The translations under genes and the position numbers were made by a program. From an uncultured Thiosulfatimonas sp. (lineage in GTDB: Bacteria > Pseudomonadota > Gammaproteobacteria > Thiomicrospirales > Thiomicrospiraceae), in contig CAZJPO010000001.1 of the NCBI GenBank assembly GCA_964547865.1, positions 14,749 to 38,748 of the forward strand: DNA of 24,000 nt, given 5' to 3'. The stretch's first letter is position 1. Every line of letters begins with the position of its first letter. This document shows, in pieces, positions 4,963 to 23,660 of this stretch. The notes below the pieces were generated by a model. The model was not told the origin of the DNA, did not search any database, and worked only from the letters and a program-made list of their open reading frames with translations.

Positions 4963-6453
4963 ATGAAGGGCAATAAACTTATCAAAATCCTAGCGATTGT
5001 CTTTGTGGCCATTGTCTTGATTGCTCTGATGATTAATGGAAAGAGTAAGAATAAGGAACTGGTGCAAGCGCAAAATGCACCTGCCTTAGATGATAACGGT
5101 TTGGCATTAGCCCCTGTCTCCGACGATGAACTTGCCAAAGAGTTTGGGGTCGATGTGGATTCTCCAGAAGAAACCATGAGAACGCTAACAACTGAACTGC
5201 AAGCTGTTAAGCGTGAGAACGACCTGATTCAGCAAGAAAACGAGCGTCTGCGTCAAGAAGCTGAAAAGCTTCTCAACATGGAAAAAAACATCACTTCACG
5301 AGTCGATAGCAAAGTGCGTAATGCGGAAACCGTGGTGGAAAATCAAGCAAAACGCTTAGAGCGTCAATCGCAAGAATCCGATACCCTGCTGCGAAGACTA
5401 GAGCAACGCCTCAAAGATTTAGAGCTTAGTCGAAACGAACCAGCAACGACTGCCCAAACAACACCTGAAGGCTATGACATTGGTATGGCAGGCATTCCCG
5501 ATGGATTGGGTTATACCGATGGGGGAATGAGTGGTACAGGCGTAATCTGGAAGCAACCACTTGATGCAGTTAAAGATGAAAAGTCTGGAGAACTTTCCTT
5601 GCCAGATTTTTCCTTGCCGGATTTAGGCGTACAAGCTCCCGGTATTCCTGAAGGTGAAGAGTTGCGTCGTGGTAAAAAGAAAGACGAACCTACCAAGATT
5701 AAAGCTTACACCATTCCTGAAAACGCAACACTGTTTGGTTCTACCAGTATGACCGCTCTTTTGGGTCGCATTCCTGTGGACGGTCAAATATCGGATCCAT
5801 ACCCATTTAAGATTATTGTCGGCCCTGAAAACCTTTCATCAAACGGCATCAACATTCCCAACGTGGAAGGCATCACTATGTCGGGTGTTGCGAAAGGTGA
5901 CTGGACGCTATCTTGTGTTTCTGGAGAAATTCACAGTATGACCTTTACCTTCTCTGACGGCTCAATTTCAACTTATCCTGAGCCAAAAGAGGGCGGTACA
6001 GCAAGAAGAGAAACAATTGCATGGTTCTCTGACGAATACGGTGTGCCTTGTGTGACTGGTAAGCGAATTACCAACGCTCCATCCTACCTTGCAACTCGAA
6101 TTGGATTGGGCGCGTTGTCCGCCTATGCCAATGTTCAAGCACAGCAAGAATATACCAACACCACGACTTCAGGGCCATACGGTACGAGCACATCTAGCAC
6201 ACTTACAGGTGACGCGGGCAATGCAGCCAAGAACCAAGCAATTGTTGGGGGCACAGAAGAGGTGATGGATTGGGTAGAAAAACGTCAGCAGCAGAGCTTT
6301 GATGCGATTTACGTTGAACCCGGCACTAAGTTGCATCTACACATGATTCAACAGGTAGCGATTGATTACCCGATTAATGGATCTGGTCGCAAGGTACAAC
6401 ACAGCGAATTCACTAACTTCCAAAGCAACAATATGCACCGTGGATTGGACTAA
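4963..6453 (+). CDS. ICE protein, PFL_4705 (TIGR03752)-like (TM anchor, coiled coil, C-terminal beta-rich domain)
   Basis: The start directly abuts the upstream TAA. N-terminal TM helix, a heptad-like E/Q/R/L-rich segment, and a G/T/S-rich C-terminus. Syntenic position. Confidence 0.7.
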   Translation: MKGNKLIKILAIVFVAIVLIALMINGKSKNKELVQAQNAPALDDNGLALAPVSDDELAKEFGVDVDSPEETMRTLTTELQAVKRENDLIQQENERLRQEAEKLLNMEKNITSRVDSKVRNAETVVENQAKRLERQSQESDTLLRRLEQRLKDLELSRNEPATTAQTTPEGYDIGMAGIPDGLGYTDGGMSGTGVIWKQPLDAVKDEKSGELSLPDFSLPDLGVQAPGIPEGEELRRGKKKDEPTKIKAYTIPENATLFGSTSMTALLGRIPVDGQISDPYPFKIIVGPENLSSNGINIPNVEGITMSGVAKGDWTLSCVSGEIHSMTFTFSDGSISTYPEPKEGGTARRETIAWFSDEYGVPCVTGKRITNAPSYLATRIGLGALSAYANVQAQQEYTNTTTSGPYGTSTSSTLTGDAGNAAKNQAIVGGTEEVMDWVEKRQQQSFDAIYVEPGTKLHLHMIQQVAIDYPINGSGRKVQHSEFTNFQSNNMHRGLD

Positions 6454-6459
6454 GGAAAC

Positions 6460-6735
6460 TGAAGTCAACAACCCACCCCTAAAGGGGCAGGCTTGAAAAA
6501 GCCTAGTTGACCAGAGGGCGACTTCGGTCGCAGCAGAGTGTAATAGGTCGTTAAGACTTACCTTGAGGTGCTTCCTTAGCCTCAAGCTCTAAAAGGCGTT
6601 GAGAATGCTGGCATAGGGTAAGTGCCGAATCTTGATGTCGCACCCTTGGGTGGAGCCGGTTACATTCAATCTCGAAGGGAGATGGCTTTTAAAGCCACGT
6701 TACAAGACCCGTAAGGGTGTTTATTTGGAGTAACA
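6460..6735 (+). ncRNA. Candidate omega RNA (guide plus scaffold) of IscB; ends not determined
   Basis: 282 nt with no credible ORF lie directly 5' of iscB on the same strand. Stem-loops: 6476-6487 (C4/G4), 6489-6504 (6 bp, GAAA loop), 6518-6531 (5 bp, UUCG loop), 6562-6586 (7 bp), 6641-6652, 6683-6697, 6707-6718 (GUAA loop). Confidence 0.6.
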
Positions 6736-8106
6736 ATGTCTGTATTAGTGCTGGATAAAAACAAGAAACCGTTGATGCCTTGTTCTGAGAAAAGAGCACG
6801 ATTGCTGTTATCTCGTGGACGAGCAGTGGTTCATCTCCTTTATCCATTCACCATCCGGATTAAAGATTTGAAGCAATCAGACTGTTTGTTGCAATCGGTG
6901 CATTTAAAGCTAGATCCAGGTTCTAAAACCACGGGATTAGCTTTAGTTCTAAGTTCTGATATTGAATTAAAAACTTTATTTTTAGCCAATATCGAACACA
7001 AAGGTTTTGCAATCTCTGAGAGTTTAACTCAACGCAGAGCATTTAGACGACGCAGAAGAAACAAGCTTTGGCATCGTAAAGCACGATTTGATAATCGGGT
7101 TAAGCCTAAAGGTTGGCTACCGCCCTCTTTAAGACACAGAGTGGATACGACATTGGCGTGGGTTAAAAAGCTATCTCGACTTGTACCTGTTACTGATATT
7201 GGGTTTGAGCGAGTTAAGTTTGATATGCAGAAGATGGCTAACGGTGATATTAGTGGTGTTGAGTATCAGCAAGGCACTTTATTTGGGTATGAGGTTAAAG
7301 AGTACCTTTTGGAAAAACATCGCCACACCTGTGCTTATTGCAGTGGGTTGAGCGGTGATAACCGCTTAGAGGTAGAACATACTCACCCCAAGTCGAAAGG
7401 TGGAGGCAATAGCGTTAAGAACTTGGTACTCGCTTGCAGAAGTTGCAATGAGTCAAAAGACAATCTGTTATTGGTGGATTGGAAAAATAGGTTGGGTAAC
7501 AGCAAGTTAGATACCGCCCGTAAATCAGGCGTTGAGAAAGTCCTTAAAGGCAAATGGTCTGGTTTAAAAGATGCCGCATCGGTTAACGCCACTCGTAATG
7601 AGTTGCTAAAACAACTGTTAATGTTTGCAGGTGAGCACTTATCCGTTTACACAGGTACAGGTGCTATGACTAAGTTTAACCGCAAACAGCAAGGGATTCC
7701 TAAAGACCACTGCTTAGATGCGTTATGTGTGGGTGAAGTATCAAAACCAATCACTCAATGGCAACAGCCTGTATTGCGCATTAAATGCACGGGCAGAGGT
7801 ATTTATAAAAGAACTCGCTTGGACAAGTACGGTTTTCCAAGAGGTTACTTGATGCGTCAAAAAGCAGTTTATGGGTTTCAAACGGGTGACATGGTTAAAG
7901 CGAATGTCACTAACGGAAAGAAAGCTGGATTGCATGTTGGGCGTGTAGCGATTAGAGCTACTGGCAGTTTTAACATTCAAACCACAACAGGTTTGGTACA
8001 AGGGATTAGTCATAATTATTGCACATTAATTCAGCGTGGCAGTGGTTATGGCTTTGGTTTTACAAAGATAGCAACCAACTATGGAGAAGAGAGAAAGGCC
8101 GCTTAA
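6736..8106 (+). CDS. iscB: IscB, OMEGA-class RNA-guided DNA endonuclease (split RuvC with inserted HNH)
   Basis: GGAG lies 5 nt upstream. PLMP motif at aa 12-15 (nt 6769-6780). RuvC-I LDPGSKTTG (D60, nt 6913-6915). Arg-rich bridge helix RRAFRRRRRNKLWHRKARF. RuvC-II GFERV (E158). HNH CAYC...EVEHTHPKSKGG...NLVLACRSCNESK (nt about 7330-7455). RuvC-III KDHCLDALC (H325, D328). All catalytic positions appear intact. Confidence 0.88.
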   Translation: MSVLVLDKNKKPLMPCSEKRARLLLSRGRAVVHLLYPFTIRIKDLKQSDCLLQSVHLKLDPGSKTTGLALVLSSDIELKTLFLANIEHKGFAISESLTQRRAFRRRRRNKLWHRKARFDNRVKPKGWLPPSLRHRVDTTLAWVKKLSRLVPVTDIGFERVKFDMQKMANGDISGVEYQQGTLFGYEVKEYLLEKHRHTCAYCSGLSGDNRLEVEHTHPKSKGGGNSVKNLVLACRSCNESKDNLLLVDWKNRLGNSKLDTARKSGVEKVLKGKWSGLKDAASVNATRNELLKQLLMFAGEHLSVYTGTGAMTKFNRKQQGIPKDHCLDALCVGEVSKPITQWQQPVLRIKCTGRGIYKRTRLDKYGFPRGYLMRQKAVYGFQTGDMVKANVTNGKKAGLHVGRVAIRATGSFNIQTTTGLVQGISHNYCTLIQRGSGYGFGFTKIATNYGEERKAA

Positions 8107-8156
8107 AAGCAGGTGCTATCCCTCCCCAATCTAAAGGATGGGGGCTCTCGCACGAA

Positions 8157-8570
8157 ATGATGAAAAAGACTTTATTTACAGGGTTACTGGCCATCAGCAT
8201 GGTCAGCGTATTAGGGGGATGCTCTTCAAAAGGCGACGTAATCCCACAGCCAGAACAAACAATGAATGATGTGTACTACAAGGCAATGGGAGGTTTTGGT
8301 GAAGCCAAGCTCATGGATCAGCGAAGTGTACTTCGTCGCTCAATGGTTGAATCCGATACGGATTACAGCAATTACGTGAGAACGGAATCTTCTCAACTGC
8401 AATCAAAGTTCTCTTTGCTGCCTAACCCAACAATGTTTATGTTTGTTGCACCACACTTGAGCACGGCTGATGGTGTACCAGTACCGGGCTATTTAACAGA
8501 ATTTAAGCTCTACACAAAAGACCACTATGCCCTACCGGGTGAAGTCAACCTTGATGTTGTAGGAGAATAG
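8157..8570 (+). CDS. Conjugative transfer region lipoprotein (TIGR03751-like)
   Basis: Starting at MMKKTLF gives a classic lipoprotein signal with lipobox LGGC (Cys22). The longer track ORF from 8019 would overlap the iscB 3' end. Syntenic position just before traC. Confidence 0.75.
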   Translation: MMKKTLFTGLLAISMVSVLGGCSSKGDVIPQPEQTMNDVYYKAMGGFGEAKLMDQRSVLRRSMVESDTDYSNYVRTESSQLQSKFSLLPNPTMFMFVAPHLSTADGVPVPGYLTEFKLYTKDHYALPGEVNLDVVGE

Positions 8571-16288: not shown

Positions 16289-16304
16289 GTAGCCTATGGG
16301 CTAC
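16289..16304. promoter_or_regulatory. Perfect inverted repeat GTAGCC-TATG-GGCTAC; candidate toxin-antitoxin (TA) operator
   Basis: 6-bp arms with a 4-nt spacer, immediately 5' of the preferred toxin start. TACAAT (16302-16307) overlaps the right arm as a possible -10. Confidence 0.35.
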
Positions 16305-16313
16305 AATGTACAA

Positions 16314-16634
16314 ATGAAATACAAAGTTCTCACTTCTACCCACTTTGATAAATGGCTTTTAAAGCAGAAAGATCGTCAAGCTGTAAGAGCCATTGCAATG
16401 CGAATTGCTAGAGCCGAACAGGGGAATTTTGGTGATTCCGAACCAGTTGGTGAAGGTGTCAGTGAGATGCGTATTTTCATAGGCAAGGGCTATCGAGTTT
16501 ACTATGCCGTTCAAGGCGACACAGTTGTTCTGCTCTTAAACGGCGGTATCAAAAGTAATAAAAAACAGCAACAAGAAGACATCTCGAAAGCAAAGCAGAT
16601 CCTAAAAGAGATCGGGGGAACCAATTATGACTGA
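16314..16634 (+). CDS. Type II toxin, RelE/ParE superfamily, HigB / Gp49-like addiction module killer protein (TIGR02683-like)
   Basis: FDKWL...GNFGDSEPVGEGVSEMRIFIGKGYRVYY...LLLNGGIKS..QQEDISKAK matches the recalled family signature. Alternative start at 16296. 8-nt overlap with the antitoxin. Confidence 0.8.
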   Translation: MKYKVLTSTHFDKWLLKQKDRQAVRAIAMRIARAEQGNFGDSEPVGEGVSEMRIFIGKGYRVYYAVQGDTVVLLLNGGIKSNKKQQQEDISKAKQILKEIGGTNYD

Positions 16635-20150: not shown

Positions 20151-20530
20151 TAATTTCAGCCGTTGAAAAATTGAAGCAGATTGTATTCCTTTCTGGACTT
20201 ATTAATAACAAACAAAAGGTCGCAGACTTGTGACCTAATGAAATTCACTTGATTCTTGATTTGATTACGTTTTTGTAATAAATTAATGCTATTCCATTTA
20301 GTTTCTTGTCTGATGATTTTTTTCATCAGCTTGAATGACCAGCCCAGAGCCAATTCCTAGCTGGTCGCATCTGCGGATGTTTGGCTCATCAACTACCTCC
20401 GGGTTCAACGCCCAATCTCTTGGCTTCACGCCTTTTAAACTTCATAAACTTCACACACCACAACTTTTTCAAAGTTGCGTTTTGCTGTGCTCGTTTATTT
20501 ATTTACTACTCCAATTTAAAGGAAACTATC

Positions 20531-21061
20531 ATGGAAAATACTACTCTAGCTGGAAATGTTGGAAATGTTCGCTCGAACAACGTAAACACTTCAAACGGAC
20601 AAAAGTTCGTTCTCAATTTCTCTTTGGCTGTTAAAACCAAAAAGAAAGACACTCAAGGAAAAACAATCACCAAATGGTATGAATGTGCATTGTGGGGCAA
20701 TTACGCTCAAACAATGTCTCAGTACATCCAGAAAGGTTCTTCTGTCACTGTAATCGGTACCACTGATGCGGAAATCTACACTCCTCAAGGTGGACAACCG
20801 CAGATCAAGCACACTTGCGATGTTGACAACCTTTTCTTGGCCAGCTCTGGTAATGGTAACAACCAAAATCAGAACAACGCCAACTTCCAAGGAAACCAAA
20901 ACCAAAATGGCAATGGTCAATTCCAACAAAATCAGCAGCAAGGTAATTTCCAACAACAAGGAAACTACCAGCAGCAGAATAATCAAGGTTTTCAACAAAA
21001 CCAAAACCAGCAACAAAATCAGAATTTTGGAATGAACCAAGACGACGATTTACCGTATTAA
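20531..21061 (+). CDS. ssb: Single-stranded DNA-binding protein with an N/Q-rich linker
   Basis: AAGGAAA lies upstream of the ATG at 20531. OB-fold-like N-terminus (LAGNVGN...KWYECALWGN...KGSSVTVIG). Acidic tip DDDLPY resembles the canonical DDDIPF. The upstream extension to 20381 lacks coding character. Confidence 0.85.
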   Translation: MENTTLAGNVGNVRSNNVNTSNGQKFVLNFSLAVKTKKKDTQGKTITKWYECALWGNYAQTMSQYIQKGSSVTVIGTTDAEIYTPQGGQPQIKHTCDVDNLFLASSGNGNNQNQNNANFQGNQNQNGNGQFQQNQQQGNFQQQGNYQQQNNQGFQQNQNQQQNQNFGMNQDDDLPY

Positions 21062-21090
21062 CGGTCGCTAATCAACTCACCTCGTTAAGA

Positions 21091-21124
21091 ACAGAACTGA
21101 ATTTATTCAGTTCTGTTTTTTTTT
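21091..21124 (+). terminator. Rho-independent terminator after ssb
   Basis: Perfect 11-bp stem ACAGAACTGAA / TTCAGTTCTGT (21091-21101 / 21106-21116), TTTA loop, then T8 (21117-21124). Confidence 0.85.
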
Positions 21125-21151
21125 GCTTATTTACTACTGAAGGAGCTAATC

Positions 21152-22114
21152 ATGGCTTATCAAAACAACCAACGTGCGCCGATGCCGGCTGTCGTTAAAC
21201 AAACCATCAGTTCAGCAGCTGCCAGATTTGAGAATTCCATTCTGGAGTTTGATAAAGAGCAGATCTACGCAATTGATGCCCTAAGCAAAAACAGCTATTC
21301 GCTGAAGATTGCTCAACAAAACCCGGCATCTCTGAAAATGGCACTCTTTAATTTGGCTGCCGTTGGATTGAGTCTCAACCCGGTGACAAAGTTTGCCTAT
21401 CTGATTCCACGTCGGATTGGTAATGAACAGAGAATTATTCTCGACATTAGCTATCAAGGCTTCATCGAGATTGCTATCAATGCTGGAGCCATAAAATCTT
21501 GCTCAGTCACGCTCGTTAGAGAAGGCGATTTGAGTTCAGGATTTCAATGGATCGACAACTACACCCCCCCAAAGAATCCACCTAATCCTTTTATCAAGGA
21601 CAAAGGTGCGATTGTTGGTGGTTACTGTCAAGCGCGTATGCCTGACAACTCATTCTTGTTGTTTCCTATGACAATCGAAGAGGTTTACAAGCGTCGTGAT
21701 TCTTCCGAAATGGTGAAGAAAAACGGTGTTTCAGGACCTTGGTTAGATTGGGAAGAAGAAATGATTAAGAAAACAATCGTGCGTTCCGCAGCGAAATGGT
21801 GGCCAAACAATGGCTCAACTAATTTGGCAGAAGCGCAGCGAACACTTAACGAAGATGCTGGAGAAGGATTGTCTGAGGAAGATCGTAACATTGTTCACGA
21901 TGTTCCAGTGCAACTGCCACCACCACCGGCGGCCAATGATTTGCCTCAGCAAATCGTTGACTATGTTGCCAAAGCAGTTAATCGAGCAGAACAGGTTTCT
22001 GCTTGGTCAGCCGCTGAAGAACACTTCACAAGCAAGTATTCGGATTTAAACCTACGCTCCTATGCGCTTTCAGAGCTTAAAGCACGAAAAGACGCAATGA
22101 AGCAATCAGCCTAA
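21152..22114 (+). CDS. recT: RecT-family single-strand annealing recombinase
   Basis: GAAGGAG lies upstream. NPASLKMALFNLAAVGLSLNP...AYLIPRR...ILDISYQGFIEIAINAGAI...REGD matches the recalled RecT core pattern. It lies between ssb and a YqaJ-type exonuclease. Confidence 0.8.
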   Translation: MAYQNNQRAPMPAVVKQTISSAAARFENSILEFDKEQIYAIDALSKNSYSLKIAQQNPASLKMALFNLAAVGLSLNPVTKFAYLIPRRIGNEQRIILDISYQGFIEIAINAGAIKSCSVTLVREGDLSSGFQWIDNYTPPKNPPNPFIKDKGAIVGGYCQARMPDNSFLLFPMTIEEVYKRRDSSEMVKKNGVSGPWLDWEEEMIKKTIVRSAAKWWPNNGSTNLAEAQRTLNEDAGEGLSEEDRNIVHDVPVQLPPPPAANDLPQQIVDYVAKAVNRAEQVSAWSAAEEHFTSKYSDLNLRSYALSELKARKDAMKQSA

Positions 22115-22127
22115 AAGGGAAACACTC

Positions 22128-22538
22128 ATGACTTTTGTTATGGATCACGAAGCGGGCTATAAAGGCCGCTACGAATACCACCAAGAAAACGAAGATGACT
22201 ACTATGGCACTTGCACTTTCACGACTAATGAAATGGTGGGTGCATTAAAAGAAATTCTTAAAGATTTACCATTTACACCAATTTTGGTACAGGGCGAATA
22301 CGACGGGATTCCTAAGACACCAACTTTGTGCTTTTCACTAGAAGAAGTGAAAAATGCAGTGGTTGAGTTAAACGAGGACAACGATAAGGTTCATCAACAA
22401 TTCCCTAACTTTAAAGATGAAATAGTTGCTTGCGATTCCATTGAGGAAATTCAAAGCCATTCAGCTTTAAAAGAGTGGGATTACGAATCTCTCATTCGTT
22501 TCTTTGAGCTAAAAACATCAAATAGAGTTATTTTTTAA
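22128..22538 (+). CDS. Highly acidic hypothetical protein (136 aa)
   Basis: AAGGGAAA lies upstream. By my count 27 D/E against 12 K/R. No family recognised. It is embedded between recT and the exonuclease. Confidence 0.6.
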   Translation: MTFVMDHEAGYKGRYEYHQENEDDYYGTCTFTTNEMVGALKEILKDLPFTPILVQGEYDGIPKTPTLCFSLEEVKNAVVELNEDNDKVHQQFPNFKDEIVACDSIEEIQSHSALKEWDYESLIRFFELKTSNRVIF

Positions 22539-22634
22539 CTTATTTTTTTAAACACCACCCAGACGGGAAATACACACCCGTCGGGTCAGTGTATTTCCTT
22601 GATGGGTTCACTACTACATCTCTGGAGATACACA

Positions 22635-23660
22635 ATGACAACTACTACAAACAACCAGTTAAAGACAACAACCATTATCAACGTAACGCAAGGAACGGAT
22701 GAATGGCTGCAATGGCGTTCAAAGGGAATTTCCGCTACGGATATTCCAATTATTATGGGTTTAAGCCCATATAAAACGCCATATCGTCTTTGGTTAGAAA
22801 AGACCGGTCGAGCAAACGCTGACGACCTGTCAAACAATCCTAACGTGCAACGCGGAAACCGATTGGAACCAAAAGCACGATCTTACTGGGAGGATAAGGA
22901 TTCGGAAATTTTACTTCCAATCTGCGCCCAATATGATCCTGCCCCTATGCTCAGAGCATCGCTTGATGGTTTGAGCATGGAAGGAAAACCTTACGAGCTA
23001 AAAGCACCTCATGAATCCACTTTCTCTGAAATAGAGGAAAAGGGTACCGATGCTGACGCTTATAAACTTTACGAACTTCAAGTCAAAACTCAATGTGTTG
23101 TTGTCGGCTCTGATTCTGGAAAGCTTTGCTTCTACATGGAAGACGAAAGAACGATGGAATTTGAGATTGAACTTCAACCAGAGGACTTGGATAACATCGT
23201 CACTGCGGCAATTGAGTTTTGGAATCTTATTGAAACCGATACTCCACCAGCTCTTGACCCGGAAAAAGACTTTTATATTCCCCAATCTGGAGAAGATGAG
23301 TTCCGTTGGCAAAGTTATTCAGAATTGTTTTCTGAAAATAAAGCCAAAATTGACGCACTGAAAGCCCAAATTGCTCCACTCGAAAATGCTCAAAAAGAGC
23401 TTCAAGAAGCAATGATTCAAATGATGGGAGATTTTCAAAATGCTGATTATGGCGGTTTGAAAGTCACTCGATTTGAACGTAAAGGCACCATTGACTATTC
23501 AAAGTTCATTAAAACTTTGGAGGTGGATGAACAAACGCTAGAAGGCTACCGCAAGAAGTCCAGCTGGCAATCAAGAGTTACTTTGTCTGAAAAAGATAAG
23601 GTGATTAATGAAGAAGTAATTGGTAATGAGTCTTCACCTACTCAAGCCGGTTATTTCTAA
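22635..23660 (+). CDS. YqaJ-type (lambda Exo-like, PD-(D/E)xK) recombination exonuclease with a C-terminal extension
   Basis: I prefer the ATG at 22635 (GGAGA 6 nt upstream) over the track TTG at 22599. GTDEWLQWRSKGISATDIPIIMGLSPYKTPYRLWLEKTG is the typical YqaJ N-terminal signature. SLDG...YELK fits the catalytic core. Confidence 0.8.
   Translation: MTTTTNNQLKTTTIINVTQGTDEWLQWRSKGISATDIPIIMGLSPYKTPYRLWLEKTGRANADDLSNNPNVQRGNRLEPKARSYWEDKDSEILLPICAQYDPAPMLRASLDGLSMEGKPYELKAPHESTFSEIEEKGTDADAYKLYELQVKTQCVVVGSDSGKLCFYMEDERTMEFEIELQPEDLDNIVTAAIEFWNLIETDTPPALDPEKDFYIPQSGEDEFRWQSYSELFSENKAKIDALKAQIAPLENAQKELQEAMIQMMGDFQNADYGGLKVTRFERKGTIDYSKFIKTLEVDEQTLEGYRKKSSWQSRVTLSEKDKVINEEVIGNESSPTQAGYF

What the first reader, a model, noticed from the sequence alone, without database searches (positions are those of the whole stretch)
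6454..8156. Intact IscB RNA-guided nuclease cassette wedged inside the conserved MPF_G conjugation operon
Seen in sequence: every other junction in the T4SS block is an overlap (ATGA, TAATG, GTGA) or a gap of a few to about 25 nt. Between the PFL_4705-like gene (stop at 6453) and the lipoprotein gene (start at 8157) there is a 1.7 kb interruption. It carries a 456-aa ORF with the full IscB layout: PLMP, RuvC-I D60, Arg-rich bridge helix, RuvC-II E158, a Cys4 HNH, and RuvC-III H325/D328. No catalytic residue is degraded, no flanking ORF is disrupted, and the cassette is co-oriented with the operon. No Y1 TnpA is present. Established knowledge: IscB elements derive from IS200/IS605, which transpose through ssDNA, and OMEGA nucleases are thought to bias retention or homing by cutting the empty site. 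Inference: an ICE is transferred as ssDNA, which is an ideal substrate, and its T4SS junctions are conserved among relatives. The nuclease could therefore cut IscB-free sibling ICEs or the excised donor joint, acting as a drive or competitor-exclusion device carried by a conjugative element. A functional link between IscB and ICE transfer has not been described to my knowledge.
Basis: partly seen in the sequence, partly recalled or inferred. Interest (0 to 1): 0.85.

Follow-up and report, generated by a model that had tools for sequence, protein, structure and literature searches.

The report
IscB transposon inserted in ICE operon
A complete but otherwise ordinary IscB guide-RNA nuclease transposon (1,696 bp) has recently landed between two conjugation genes of an integrative conjugative element, and nearly identical elements without it still carry the exact site its guide RNA would recognise.

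Summary
Window 6464-8159 is a 1,696-bp non-autonomous IS200/IS605-family (ISC) element. It carries a covariation-supported omega RNA (HEARO; scaffold 6464-~6718) and an intact 456-aa IscB (6736-8106; NCBIfam equivalog 373 bits; all catalytic residues present). It has a terminal hairpin and no tnpA.

Ten natural empty alleles in sibling ICEs (88-99.4% identical) fix the boundaries to the base. There is no target-site duplication. The insertion lies between the lipoprotein gene's ribosome-binding site and its ATG. The 16 nt upstream of the scaffold, the presumed guide, match every empty allele 16/16. They are followed there by ATGA(A), the reverse complement of the TTCAT motif measured for GstIscB.

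So the sequence requirements for cutting IscB-free sibling ICEs are met. But any such element matches its own empty site by construction. Retention homing by IscB, a TnpB gene drive on plasmids, and "non-restorative homing" are already published. The occupied allele is the minority: 5 contigs from two sources against 10 empty. None of 79 related IscB loci lies in a T4SS.

Verdict: a new member of a known kind. The drive idea is plausible, untested and not conceptually new.

The parts
6448..6463 (+). Presumed omega RNA guide (GACTAAGGAAACTGAA). It is ICE flank, not part of the element. It spans the TAA stop of the TIGR03752 gene (6451-6453) and the displaced ribosome-binding site of the lipoprotein gene (AAGGAA, 6452-6457). 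The 16-nt length is assumed; the true 5' end is unknown.
   Evidence: It lies immediately 5' of HEARO model position 1. Across 49 related loci, columns upstream of the scaffold carry about 0.1 bit and the scaffold 2.0 bits. It matches all 10 empty alleles 16/16. The only perfect match in the window is itself.
6464..8159 (+). The whole mobile element: 1,696 bp, a non-autonomous IS200/IS605-family (ISC) IscB element with no target-site duplication.
   Evidence: blastn breakpoints are 6463|8160 against all 10 empty-site contigs, L015 and L096-L104. Shifting either boundary by 1 nt fails to regenerate the empty sequence. Related elements are 1,600-1,753 bp.
6464..6718 (+). Omega RNA scaffold. It comprises the Rfam HEARO region (6464-6686) and two further hairpins (6683-6697 and 6707-6718). 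In the IS200/IS605 convention this is the RE side of the element.
   Evidence: Rfam RF02033 scores 80.9 bits (gathering 83), E 3e-16, full model 1-211. RNAalifold on 45 sequences predicts 66 pairs, 54 of them with compensatory changes. Meers et al. place the IscB omega RNA at the RE.
6727..6730 (+). GGAG ribosome-binding site of iscB, 5 nt before the ATG.
   Evidence: Read directly from the sequence. A purine-rich block is conserved at this position in the alignment.
6736..8106 (+). iscB ORF, 456 aa. It has a PLMP/RRXRR N-terminus, RuvC I/II/III, a Cys4 HNH insert and a conserved beta-rich C-terminal domain.
   Evidence: The AF2 model (pLDDT 72.8) best matches IscB-omega RNA-DNA complexes 8csz, 9liq, 9k30 and 7xht.
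8107..8159 (+). iscB-distal terminus (LE in the IS200/IS605 convention). It holds a conserved box GCTATCCCTC, an imperfect hairpin at about 8124-8143, and the terminal CTCTCGCACGAAATG.
   Evidence: It is conserved in 40 related elements that have a 3' extension. In 29 sequences, 10 of the 11 hairpin pairs show compensatory changes. The left end has a similar CCCC-TAAA-GGGG hairpin at 6476-6487.
8160..8164 (+). Target/TAM motif ATGAA. It is flank, and it is the original start codon of the lipoprotein gene plus AA. On the opposite strand it reads TTCAT.
   Evidence: ATGA abuts the terminus in 67 of the 80 sequences examined, with ATGAA in 46. GATGA is invariant in 29/29. Nine empty alleles read ATGAA and L015 reads ATGAG. 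The wild-type GstIscB TAM is TTCAT.
4963..6453 (+). Upstream flanking ICE gene (TIGR03752 / PFL_4705 family). Its transcription presumably supplies the omega RNA with its guide.
   Evidence: NCBIfam TIGR03752 at 459.8 bits. No + strand promoter-like or terminator-like site lies between 5900 and 6736.
8160..8570 (+). Downstream flanking ICE gene (TIGR03751 conjugal transfer lipoprotein). In the occupied allele an extra in-frame ATG (8157-8159) from the element precedes it, and its native ribosome-binding site now lies 1.7 kb upstream.
   Evidence: NCBIfam TIGR03751 at 100.8 bits. The identical 136-aa protein is found at the empty sites.

Best explanation
This is a canonical, apparently functional, non-autonomous IS200/IS605-family (ISC) element consisting of an omega RNA, iscB and two hairpin ends. 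A Y1 TnpA supplied in trans by some host presumably inserted it recently, on single-stranded DNA, immediately next to a TTCAT motif. That motif reads ATGAA on the iscB strand, and here it is the start codon of the ICE's TIGR03751 lipoprotein gene.

The element has no promoter of its own in the leader and its guide lies outside the element. The omega RNA is therefore most likely made by read-through from the T4SS operon (inferred). The IscB-omega RNA complex would then recognise GACTAAGGAAACTGAA followed by ATGA, a sequence that exists only where the element is absent. The occupied copy is protected because GTCAA follows the protospacer there.

The expected function is the published one. The nuclease cuts the empty site (a donor joint after excision, or a homologous copy lacking the element), and the break is repaired from an occupied copy, which keeps or copies the element. 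Its location in an ICE is incidental to the element's biology. It follows from the clade's habit of inserting at RBS|ATGA gene starts inside co-oriented operons.

Shown here: the element's identity, exact ends, RNA structure, intact catalytic residues, insertion polymorphism, and guide/TAM match to natural empty alleles. Inferred: transcription by read-through, nuclease activity, and homing.
For: - IscB identity.
- Omega RNA: HEARO, E 3e-16; 54 of 66 pairs compensatory.
- Exact ends and no duplication: from ten empty alleles at 88-99.4% identity, all with breakpoints 6463|8160.
- Clade-wide termini and flank motif: ATGA in 67 of 80 sequences examined; sharp left boundary; terminal hairpin covaries, GATGA invariant.
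- TAM agreement with experiment: (GstIscB TTCAT, omega RNA at the RE, tnpA near only ~1.5% of iscB genes, iscB co-oriented with the upstream gene).
- No tnpA in the window.
- No + strand promoter or terminator upstream of the scaffold.
- Absent from all related ICEs.
Against: - No expression or cleavage data exist.
- The Rfam score is 2 bits below gathering, although clade covariation compensates for that.
- The guide length and its 5' end are assumed.
- No second copy of this element and no tnpA were found, so its source and current mobility are unknown. The closest IscB is 76% identical.
- The insertion moves the lipoprotein gene's ribosome-binding site 1.7 kb away, which could impair the T4SS and make this a mildly deleterious, transient insertion.
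Confidence: 0.85

Rival explanations
1. ICE-level gene drive or competitor exclusion. When an IscB-positive ICE and an IscB-free sibling meet in one cell after conjugation, IscB cuts the sibling's empty site. The sibling is then either converted by recombination (non-restorative homing) or lost, so the cassette spreads with, and favours, its carrier ICE.
For: - All 10 natural sibling empty alleles carry the perfect protospacer and an ATGA TAM, and no resistant variants are seen.
- The cassette is co-oriented with the T4SS operon and has no promoter or terminator between them, so expression may coincide with transfer.
- The ICE carries SSB, RecT and YqaJ, which could assist break repair.
- TnpB does this on plasmids experimentally, and the concept is recognised in a review.
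Against: - The occupied allele is the minority: 5 contigs from one BioSample series plus one run, against 10 empty contigs from 10 other assemblies.
- None of 79 related IscB loci is in a T4SS, so nothing suggests adaptation to ICEs.
- ICEs are usually single-copy and integrated, so encounters between the two alleles are rare compared with multicopy plasmids (general knowledge).
- The guide-to-empty-site match follows from the element's architecture and is not specific evidence.
- There are no activity data.
Confidence: 0.25
2. A neutral or mildly harmful passenger that is effectively stranded. The element is intact in sequence, but without a cognate TnpA and without meeting empty alleles it does nothing of consequence. 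It may reduce lipoprotein expression and be lost in time.
For: - No tnpA is in the window or next to relatives.
- The insertion is rare and restricted in where it was sampled.
- The lipoprotein ribosome-binding site is displaced.
- This exact element is seen at only one site in the databases searched.
Against: - Every functional part is intact: ten of eleven catalytic and zinc positions are invariant, E158 is conserved in 120 of 121 sequences, and the RNA fits all helices and both termini.
- The protein is identical in the four contigs that hold the full ORF, and a fifth assembly carries the same left junction.
- This reading concerns fitness consequences. It does not contradict the mechanism in the best explanation.
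Confidence: 0.3
3. A domesticated or core component of the ICE, such as a T4SS accessory nuclease, a regulator or a defence gene, and not a transposon.
For: It is co-oriented, disrupts no ORF, and is flanked tightly by transfer genes.
Against: - It is absent from 19 of 19 related ICE junctions, including copies 99% identical.
- It has complete IS605-type ends and a flank-derived guide.
- Relatives sit in unrelated contexts.
Confidence: 0.02
4. An assembly chimera, or a non-IscB HNH protein (phage or group II intron type).
For: The window comes from a metagenome. One contig (L105) ends 51 nt inside the element.
Against: - The full insert with both junctions is identical in four independent assemblies, and a fifth (L105) has the identical left junction.
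- The ORF passes the IscB equivalog at more than twice the cutoff, with RuvC I-III present.
- The structural best hits are IscB complexes.
Confidence: 0.01

Closest known systems
GstIscB element of Geobacillus stearothermophilus (ISGst family; Meers et al., bioRxiv 10.1101/2023.03.14.532601, later Nature 2023)
   Same: Both are non-autonomous IS605-family elements with the omega RNA upstream of iscB, abutting the RE, and a guide taken from the flank. The TAM is TTCAT 5' of the LE, which is ATGAA after the iscB 3' end and matches this element. tnpA is absent in cis, and iscB is co-oriented with the upstream gene.
   Different: This copy comes from an unrelated gammaproteobacterial lineage. It sits inside an ICE T4SS operon, exactly between a ribosome-binding site and a start codon. 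Its activity is untested here.
OgeuIscB / TbaIscB, IscB-omega RNA-DNA complexes with solved structures (PDB 7xht, 7utn, 8csz, 9k30)
   Same: They share the domain order and catalytic residues. They are the best sequence matches (E 1e-36 to 1e-26) and the best fold matches (E 1e-19 to 1e-14). Both have a HEARO-type omega RNA.
   Different: Structure-based sequence identity is only about 17-22%. The window protein is 456 aa against 496 aa for OgeuIscB. The OgeuIscB TAM is NWRRNA (abstract of PMC12660989), whereas the motif inferred here is ATGA.
HEARO RNA (Rfam RF02033)
   Same: There is a full-length match over model positions 1-211 at E 3e-16, and all helices are supported by covariation in this clade.
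   Different: The score of 80.9 is just below the gathering score of 83. The clade's scaffold extends about 30 nt further, through two extra hairpins. Meers et al. also noted that the Rfam model lacks downstream elements.
TnpB/IS605 gene drive in plasmids (Mears et al. 2025, PMC11870625) and 'transposon non-restorative homing' (review PMC13565253)
   Different: That work used TnpB, not IscB, and multicopy plasmids, not a normally single-copy integrating ICE. It is experimentally shown there and only inferred here.

Membership tests
IscB (OMEGA RNA-guided endonuclease) | N-terminal PLMP/RRXRR region with a split RuvC (I, II, III) interrupted by an HNH domain. | tested here: met
   NCBIfam NF040563 equivalog at 373.5 bits against a cutoff of 175, covering residues 3-333. 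Pfam RRXRR at 226 bits and HNH at 40.5 bits.
IscB (OMEGA RNA-guided endonuclease) | Catalytic and zinc-binding residues intact. | tested here: met
   D60, E158, H215, N238, H325, D328, C199, C202, C234 and C237 are all present. All are invariant in 120 homologues except E158, which is conserved in 120 of 121 aligned sequences. They align with the corresponding residues of solved IscBs.
IscB (OMEGA RNA-guided endonuclease) | A C-terminal (TAM-interacting) domain is present. | tested here: met
   Homologues named IscB align over 100% of the query. Residues 334-456 hold many invariant positions. A beta-rich domain is predicted with pLDDT 80-90, and IscB complexes are the top full-length fold hits. 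A domain-level superposition was not inspected.
IscB (OMEGA RNA-guided endonuclease) | A cognate omega RNA (HEARO) lies immediately upstream on the same strand. | tested here: met
   RF02033 matches 6464-6686 at E 3e-16. 54 of 66 pairs show compensatory changes in 45 sequences.
IscB (OMEGA RNA-guided endonuclease) | RNA-guided, TAM-dependent dsDNA cleavage. | not testable with these tools
   This needs a cell-free or plasmid-interference assay.
IS200/IS605-family (ISC) insertion sequence | Precise insertion without target-site duplication or terminal inverted repeats. | tested here: met
   Comparing occupied and empty alleles gives unique boundaries at 6464 and 8159 with no duplicated bases.
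IS200/IS605-family (ISC) insertion sequence | Subterminal imperfect hairpins at both ends. | tested here: met
   The left CCCC-TAAA-GGGG hairpin lies within P1. The right hairpin covaries in 10 of 11 pairs.
IS200/IS605-family (ISC) insertion sequence | Insertion next to a fixed short target motif that doubles as the nuclease TAM. | tested here: met
   ATGA (TCAT on the other strand) abuts the terminus in 67 of the 80 sequences examined. It is present in all 10 empty alleles. It equals the GstIscB TAM TTCAT.
IS200/IS605-family (ISC) insertion sequence | A Y1 HUH transposase TnpA is encoded in the element (autonomous members only). | tested here: not met
   There is none in the window, so the element is non-autonomous, as about 98.5% of iscB loci are.
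Gene drive / non-restorative homing on a conjugative element | The nuclease target (guide match plus TAM) is present in natural element-free homologues and absent from the carrier. | tested here: met
   The match is 16/16 plus ATGA in L015 and L096-L104. In the carrier the protospacer is followed by GTCAA.
Gene drive / non-restorative homing on a conjugative element | The occupied allele is over-represented among sibling ICEs, as expected after a sweep. | tested here: not met
   There are 5 occupied contigs (one BioSample series plus one SRA run) against 10 empty contigs from 10 other assemblies. Sampling is opportunistic, so this is weak evidence.
Gene drive / non-restorative homing on a conjugative element | Biased conversion or loss of the empty allele when both alleles share a cell. 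| not testable with these tools
   This needs conjugation or competition experiments.
Core MPF_G T4SS component | Present at this position in related ICEs. | tested here: not met
   It is absent from 9 distant relatives (L005-L013) and 10 close siblings.

The most novel reading that the evidence does not exclude
This IscB clade may be a specialised parasite of gene starts. Its TAM/target ATGA is typically a host gene's start codon plus A, so the element slots between the ribosome-binding site and the ATG of a co-oriented gene.

Three consequences would follow:
1. The flank-derived guide can only be transcribed by read-through from the host operon.
2. In many copies the IscB stop codon overlaps the host ATG (ATGA coupling), which would restore translation of the displaced gene.
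3. In this ICE, nuclease and guide would be produced together with the T4SS, in transfer-competent cells. That would make it a conjugation-coupled homing drive against the many sibling ICEs that still carry the perfect target.
Probability: 0.15. Interest if true: 0.6.

Novelty: new member of a known kind. Interest (0 to 1): 0.35.

Why it matters
As an object it is ordinary. IscB/omega RNA elements, their flank-derived guides, their TTCAT/ATGAA motif, their lack of tnpA and their retention-homing role are all published.

Its value is as a clean natural test case. One ICE family has both an occupied allele and many empty alleles, up to 99.4% identical, that retain the exact protospacer and TAM. 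The nuclease also sits inside the transfer operon. That makes it straightforward to test whether IscB, not only TnpB, can drive an insertion through a population of conjugative elements, and whether guide production depends on host-operon read-through.

The side observation is that this clade inserts between the ribosome-binding site and the start codon, often fusing its stop codon to the host ATG. That would give a mechanistic reason for the orientation bias already reported for IscB elements.

Tried and rejected
- **Rfam at gathering threshold** found nothing. The E-value mode showed HEARO at 80.9 bits against a cutoff of 83.
- **Plasmid database (blastn)** had no close copy, only an ORF-deleted relative and distant iscB genes.
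- **The reference-genome scan** with the upstream protein gave ICE relatives at 32-60% amino-acid identity. These show absence of IscB but are too distant to fix the ends.
- **Right-end ambiguity.** I first left a 3-nt ambiguity open (element ending at 8156 or 8159, with the ICE originally having ATGATG). It was rejected once near-identical empty alleles showed a single ATG.
- **Terminus classification.** My first regex missed elements whose stop codon lies in or across the ATGA, and took the first of two ATGAs. It was redone. Thirteen of the 80 sequences examined remain unclassified.
- **Literature.** The Weinberg 2010 Genome Biology paper does not mention HEARO, and the 2009 Nature paper is not held. 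My recollection that HEARO was reported to insert next to ATGA/GTGA therefore stays unverified and is not used.
- **Rejected readings.** A core T4SS gene, a domesticated nuclease, a phage or intron HNH protein and an assembly chimera were all considered and rejected (see rivals).
- **Off-targets.** Two 3-mismatch guide matches in the window (4902, 19790) were not pursued.
- **Not attempted:** oriT and transferred-strand assignment, host identification, and dN/dS.
Full report

Yes. The window encodes a run of co-oriented ICE transfer genes: TIGR03749, TIGR03752, the TIGR03751 lipoprotein, the TIGR03744 traC_PFL_4706 ATPase and TIGR03756, all above NCBIfam cutoffs. Pfam adds TraG-D_C, DtrJ-like, RAQPRD, TraU and TraG_N on identical or sibling contigs.

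The TIGR03752 gene stops at 6453 and the lipoprotein gene starts at 8157/8160. Between them lies a 456-aa ORF at 6736-8106. The other junctions are overlaps or short gaps, except for 104 nt at 1923-2028.

**2. What is the ORF?**

It is IscB. It passes the NCBIfam equivalog NF040563 (RNA-guided endonuclease IscB) at 373.5 bits against a cutoff of 175. Pfam finds RRXRR at 226 bits plus HNH. Its best matches among solved structures are IscB-omega RNA-DNA complexes, both by sequence (TbaIscB and OgeuIscB, E 1e-36 to 1e-26) and by fold (an AF2 model of pLDDT 72.8 against 8csz, 9liq, 9k30 and 7xht, E 1e-19 to 1e-14).

Ten of the eleven positions are invariant in 120 homologues, and E158 is conserved in 120 of 121 aligned sequences. 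The C-terminal third, which the profile does not cover, is conserved with many invariant positions.

**3. The leader is an omega RNA.**

Rfam's HEARO model, the IscB omega RNA, matches 6464-6686 over its full length at E 3e-16 and 80.9 bits, 2 bits under gathering. That is why the default scan was empty.

I aligned the leader with 44 related leaders. RNAalifold predicts 66 pairs, and 54 of them retain pairing through changes on both sides. The window fits every helix, including two hairpins beyond the Rfam model that reach about 6718.

**4. Exact ends and empty sites.**

Nine distant ICE relatives in reference genomes lack IscB and join the two genes directly.

I then looked up the lipoprotein as it would be called at an empty site, and a 98%-identical version of the upstream protein. 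That gave ten contigs from ten assemblies with the junction empty, 88-99.4% identical to the window.

- Empty alleles read ...GGATTGGACTAAGGAAACTGAA|ATGA...
- The window reads ...GGACTAAGGAAACTGAA[GTCAAC...CGCACGAAATG]ATGAAAAAG...

blastn breakpoints are always 6463|8160. The element is therefore 6464-8159, 1,696 bp, with no duplication. Its first base is HEARO position 1.

The occupied allele occurs on five contigs: four assemblies of one BioSample series and one SRA run. Four of them hold the whole insert with an identical protein, and the fifth (L105) ends 51 nt inside it.

**5. It has the anatomy of an IS200/IS605-family (ISC) element.**

I fetched 80 loci with related IscBs at 50-76% identity; 79 could be analysed alongside the window.

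- Conservation begins abruptly at the G of GTCAAC: about 0.1 bit in the 25 upstream columns, then 2.0 bits.
- The far end is a conserved box, a hairpin with compensatory changes in 10 of 11 pairs, and ...CGCGCAAA..TG.
- ATGA follows immediately in 67 of the 80 sequences examined. The fifth base is A in 46, C in 9, G in 8 and T in 4.

Meers et al. report that the IscB omega RNA abuts the RE, that the GstIscB TAM is TTCAT written 5' of the LE, that tnpA lies near only ~1.5% of iscB genes, and that iscB tends to match the orientation of the upstream gene. TTCAT is the reverse complement of ATGAA, which is exactly the window's flank.

No Y1 transposase is in the window. Among the related loci there is one, 2.5 kb from its IscB.

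**6. Mechanism.**

The 16 nt before the scaffold (6448-6463, GACTAAGGAAACTGAA) are the presumed guide.

- In the occupied allele this sequence is followed by GTCAA, so the carrier is not a target.
- In all ten empty alleles it is matched 16/16, and the preceding 20 nt are identical too. It is followed by ATGAA in nine and ATGAG in one.

No + strand promoter-like or terminator-like site separates the upstream gene from the scaffold. The guide-bearing RNA would therefore have to come from operon read-through, which is an inference.

The expected function is the published one: cut the empty site and let recombination restore or copy the element.

**7. The drive/exclusion hypothesis.**

Its sequence prerequisites are met, and the ICE also carries SSB, RecT and YqaJ. 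Four points limit it:

- A guide that matches the empty site is built into every such element.
- The occupied allele is the minority.
- None of the 79 related IscB loci lies in a T4SS.
- ICEs are normally single-copy (general knowledge).

The concept is not new either. A TnpB gene drive on plasmids has been shown experimentally, and a 2026 review lists "transposon non-restorative homing" with coinfecting plasmids as targets. I found no paper describing IscB on an ICE, but one search of an open-access library is not proof of absence.

**8. Seen in passing.**

I reconstructed the empty sites of 39 related elements with both ends defined:

- The flank ATG opens an ORF of at least 60 codons in 26 of 35. 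In a wider set the figure is 37 of 57, against 35% for other ATGA sites in the same loci.
- A Shine-Dalgarno-like motif lies 4-16 nt before the junction in 22 of 47 distinct flanks, against 13.5% at random positions (p = 4e-8).
- A co-oriented ORF ends within 60 nt upstream in 24 of 39.

In 27 of the 80 sequences examined, the IscB stop codon is the TGA of the flank ATGA or is formed across the junction. So this clade habitually sits between a gene's ribosome-binding site and its ATG. That explains why it looks "wedged" into the operon without breaking an ORF. In the window it moves the lipoprotein gene's AAGGAA 1.7 kb away from its ATG. The effect on expression is unknown.

**9. Verdict.**

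The identification as IscB is correct. The functional speculation is plausible, unproven and not conceptually novel. This is a new member of a known kind. Its main use is as a natural occupied/empty allele pair for testing IscB homing on a conjugative element.

Noticed in passing
L016-L095 (related IscB loci); window 6448-6463 and 8160-8164: Elements of this IscB clade usually sit between a Shine-Dalgarno-like motif and an ATGA that opens an ORF, downstream of a co-oriented gene. The SD-like motif occurs in 22/47 flanks against 13.5% at random positions (p = 4e-8). The flank ATG opens an ORF of at least 60 codons in 26/35 reconstructed sites. An upstream co-oriented ORF ends within 60 nt in 24/39. 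This may explain the reported orientation bias of IscB elements.
   Followed up: partly
L016-L095, iscB 3' ends (e.g. L031, L035, L049 with ...GCAAACTGA|TGAA; L051, L054, L080 with ...ATGA): There are three 3' architectures. In 40 elements, including the window's, a hairpin extension follows the stop codon. In 14 the stop is formed by the element's last TG plus the flank's A. In 13 the stop is the TGA of the flank ATGA. In the last two classes the IscB stop overlaps the host gene's start codon, like an ATGA translational-coupling junction.
   Followed up: partly
L014 4002-4568 (Thiomicrorhabdus aquaedulcis plasmid pTmrp1, NZ_AP018723.1 ~91586-92152): This is an ORF-deleted derivative of a related element, about 75% identical, with element positions 293-1474 missing. 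It keeps the whole omega RNA, the last ~65 codons and the terminal hairpin, and is again followed by ATGAA. It sits on a mobilizable plasmid and is not annotated as an IS.
   Followed up: partly
window 20381-23660: The ICE carries an SSB (20381-21061), a RecT (21152-22114) and a YqaJ-type exonuclease (22599-23660). This is a single-strand-annealing recombination module that could in principle assist repair of IscB-made breaks.
   Followed up: no
window 16296-16634: A Gp49-like (PF05973) small protein lies directly after the T4SS block, in a family that I recall includes HigB-type toxins. No partner gene was examined.
   Followed up: no
L105 (ENA ERZ23488011 scaffold_582), end of contig = window 6514: One assembly from the same BioSample series breaks 51 nt inside the element. 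This could reflect mixed occupied and empty alleles, extra copies of the element, or just low coverage.
   Followed up: no
window 8157-8162: In the occupied allele the element's terminal ATG is in frame with the lipoprotein's own ATG, so gene callers report a 137-aa protein (MMKK...) where empty alleles give 136 aa (MKK...). The nearest purine-rich stretch (GGATGGGGG, 8136-8144) ends 12 nt upstream of the first ATG, which is poor spacing for a ribosome-binding site.
   Followed up: partly
L017 4905-5309: This is the only Y1 (HUH) TnpA found in any fetched locus. It lies about 2.5 kb downstream of a 70%-identical IscB element and on the same strand. It is not adjacent, so it may belong to a separate IS200-type element.
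   Followed up: no
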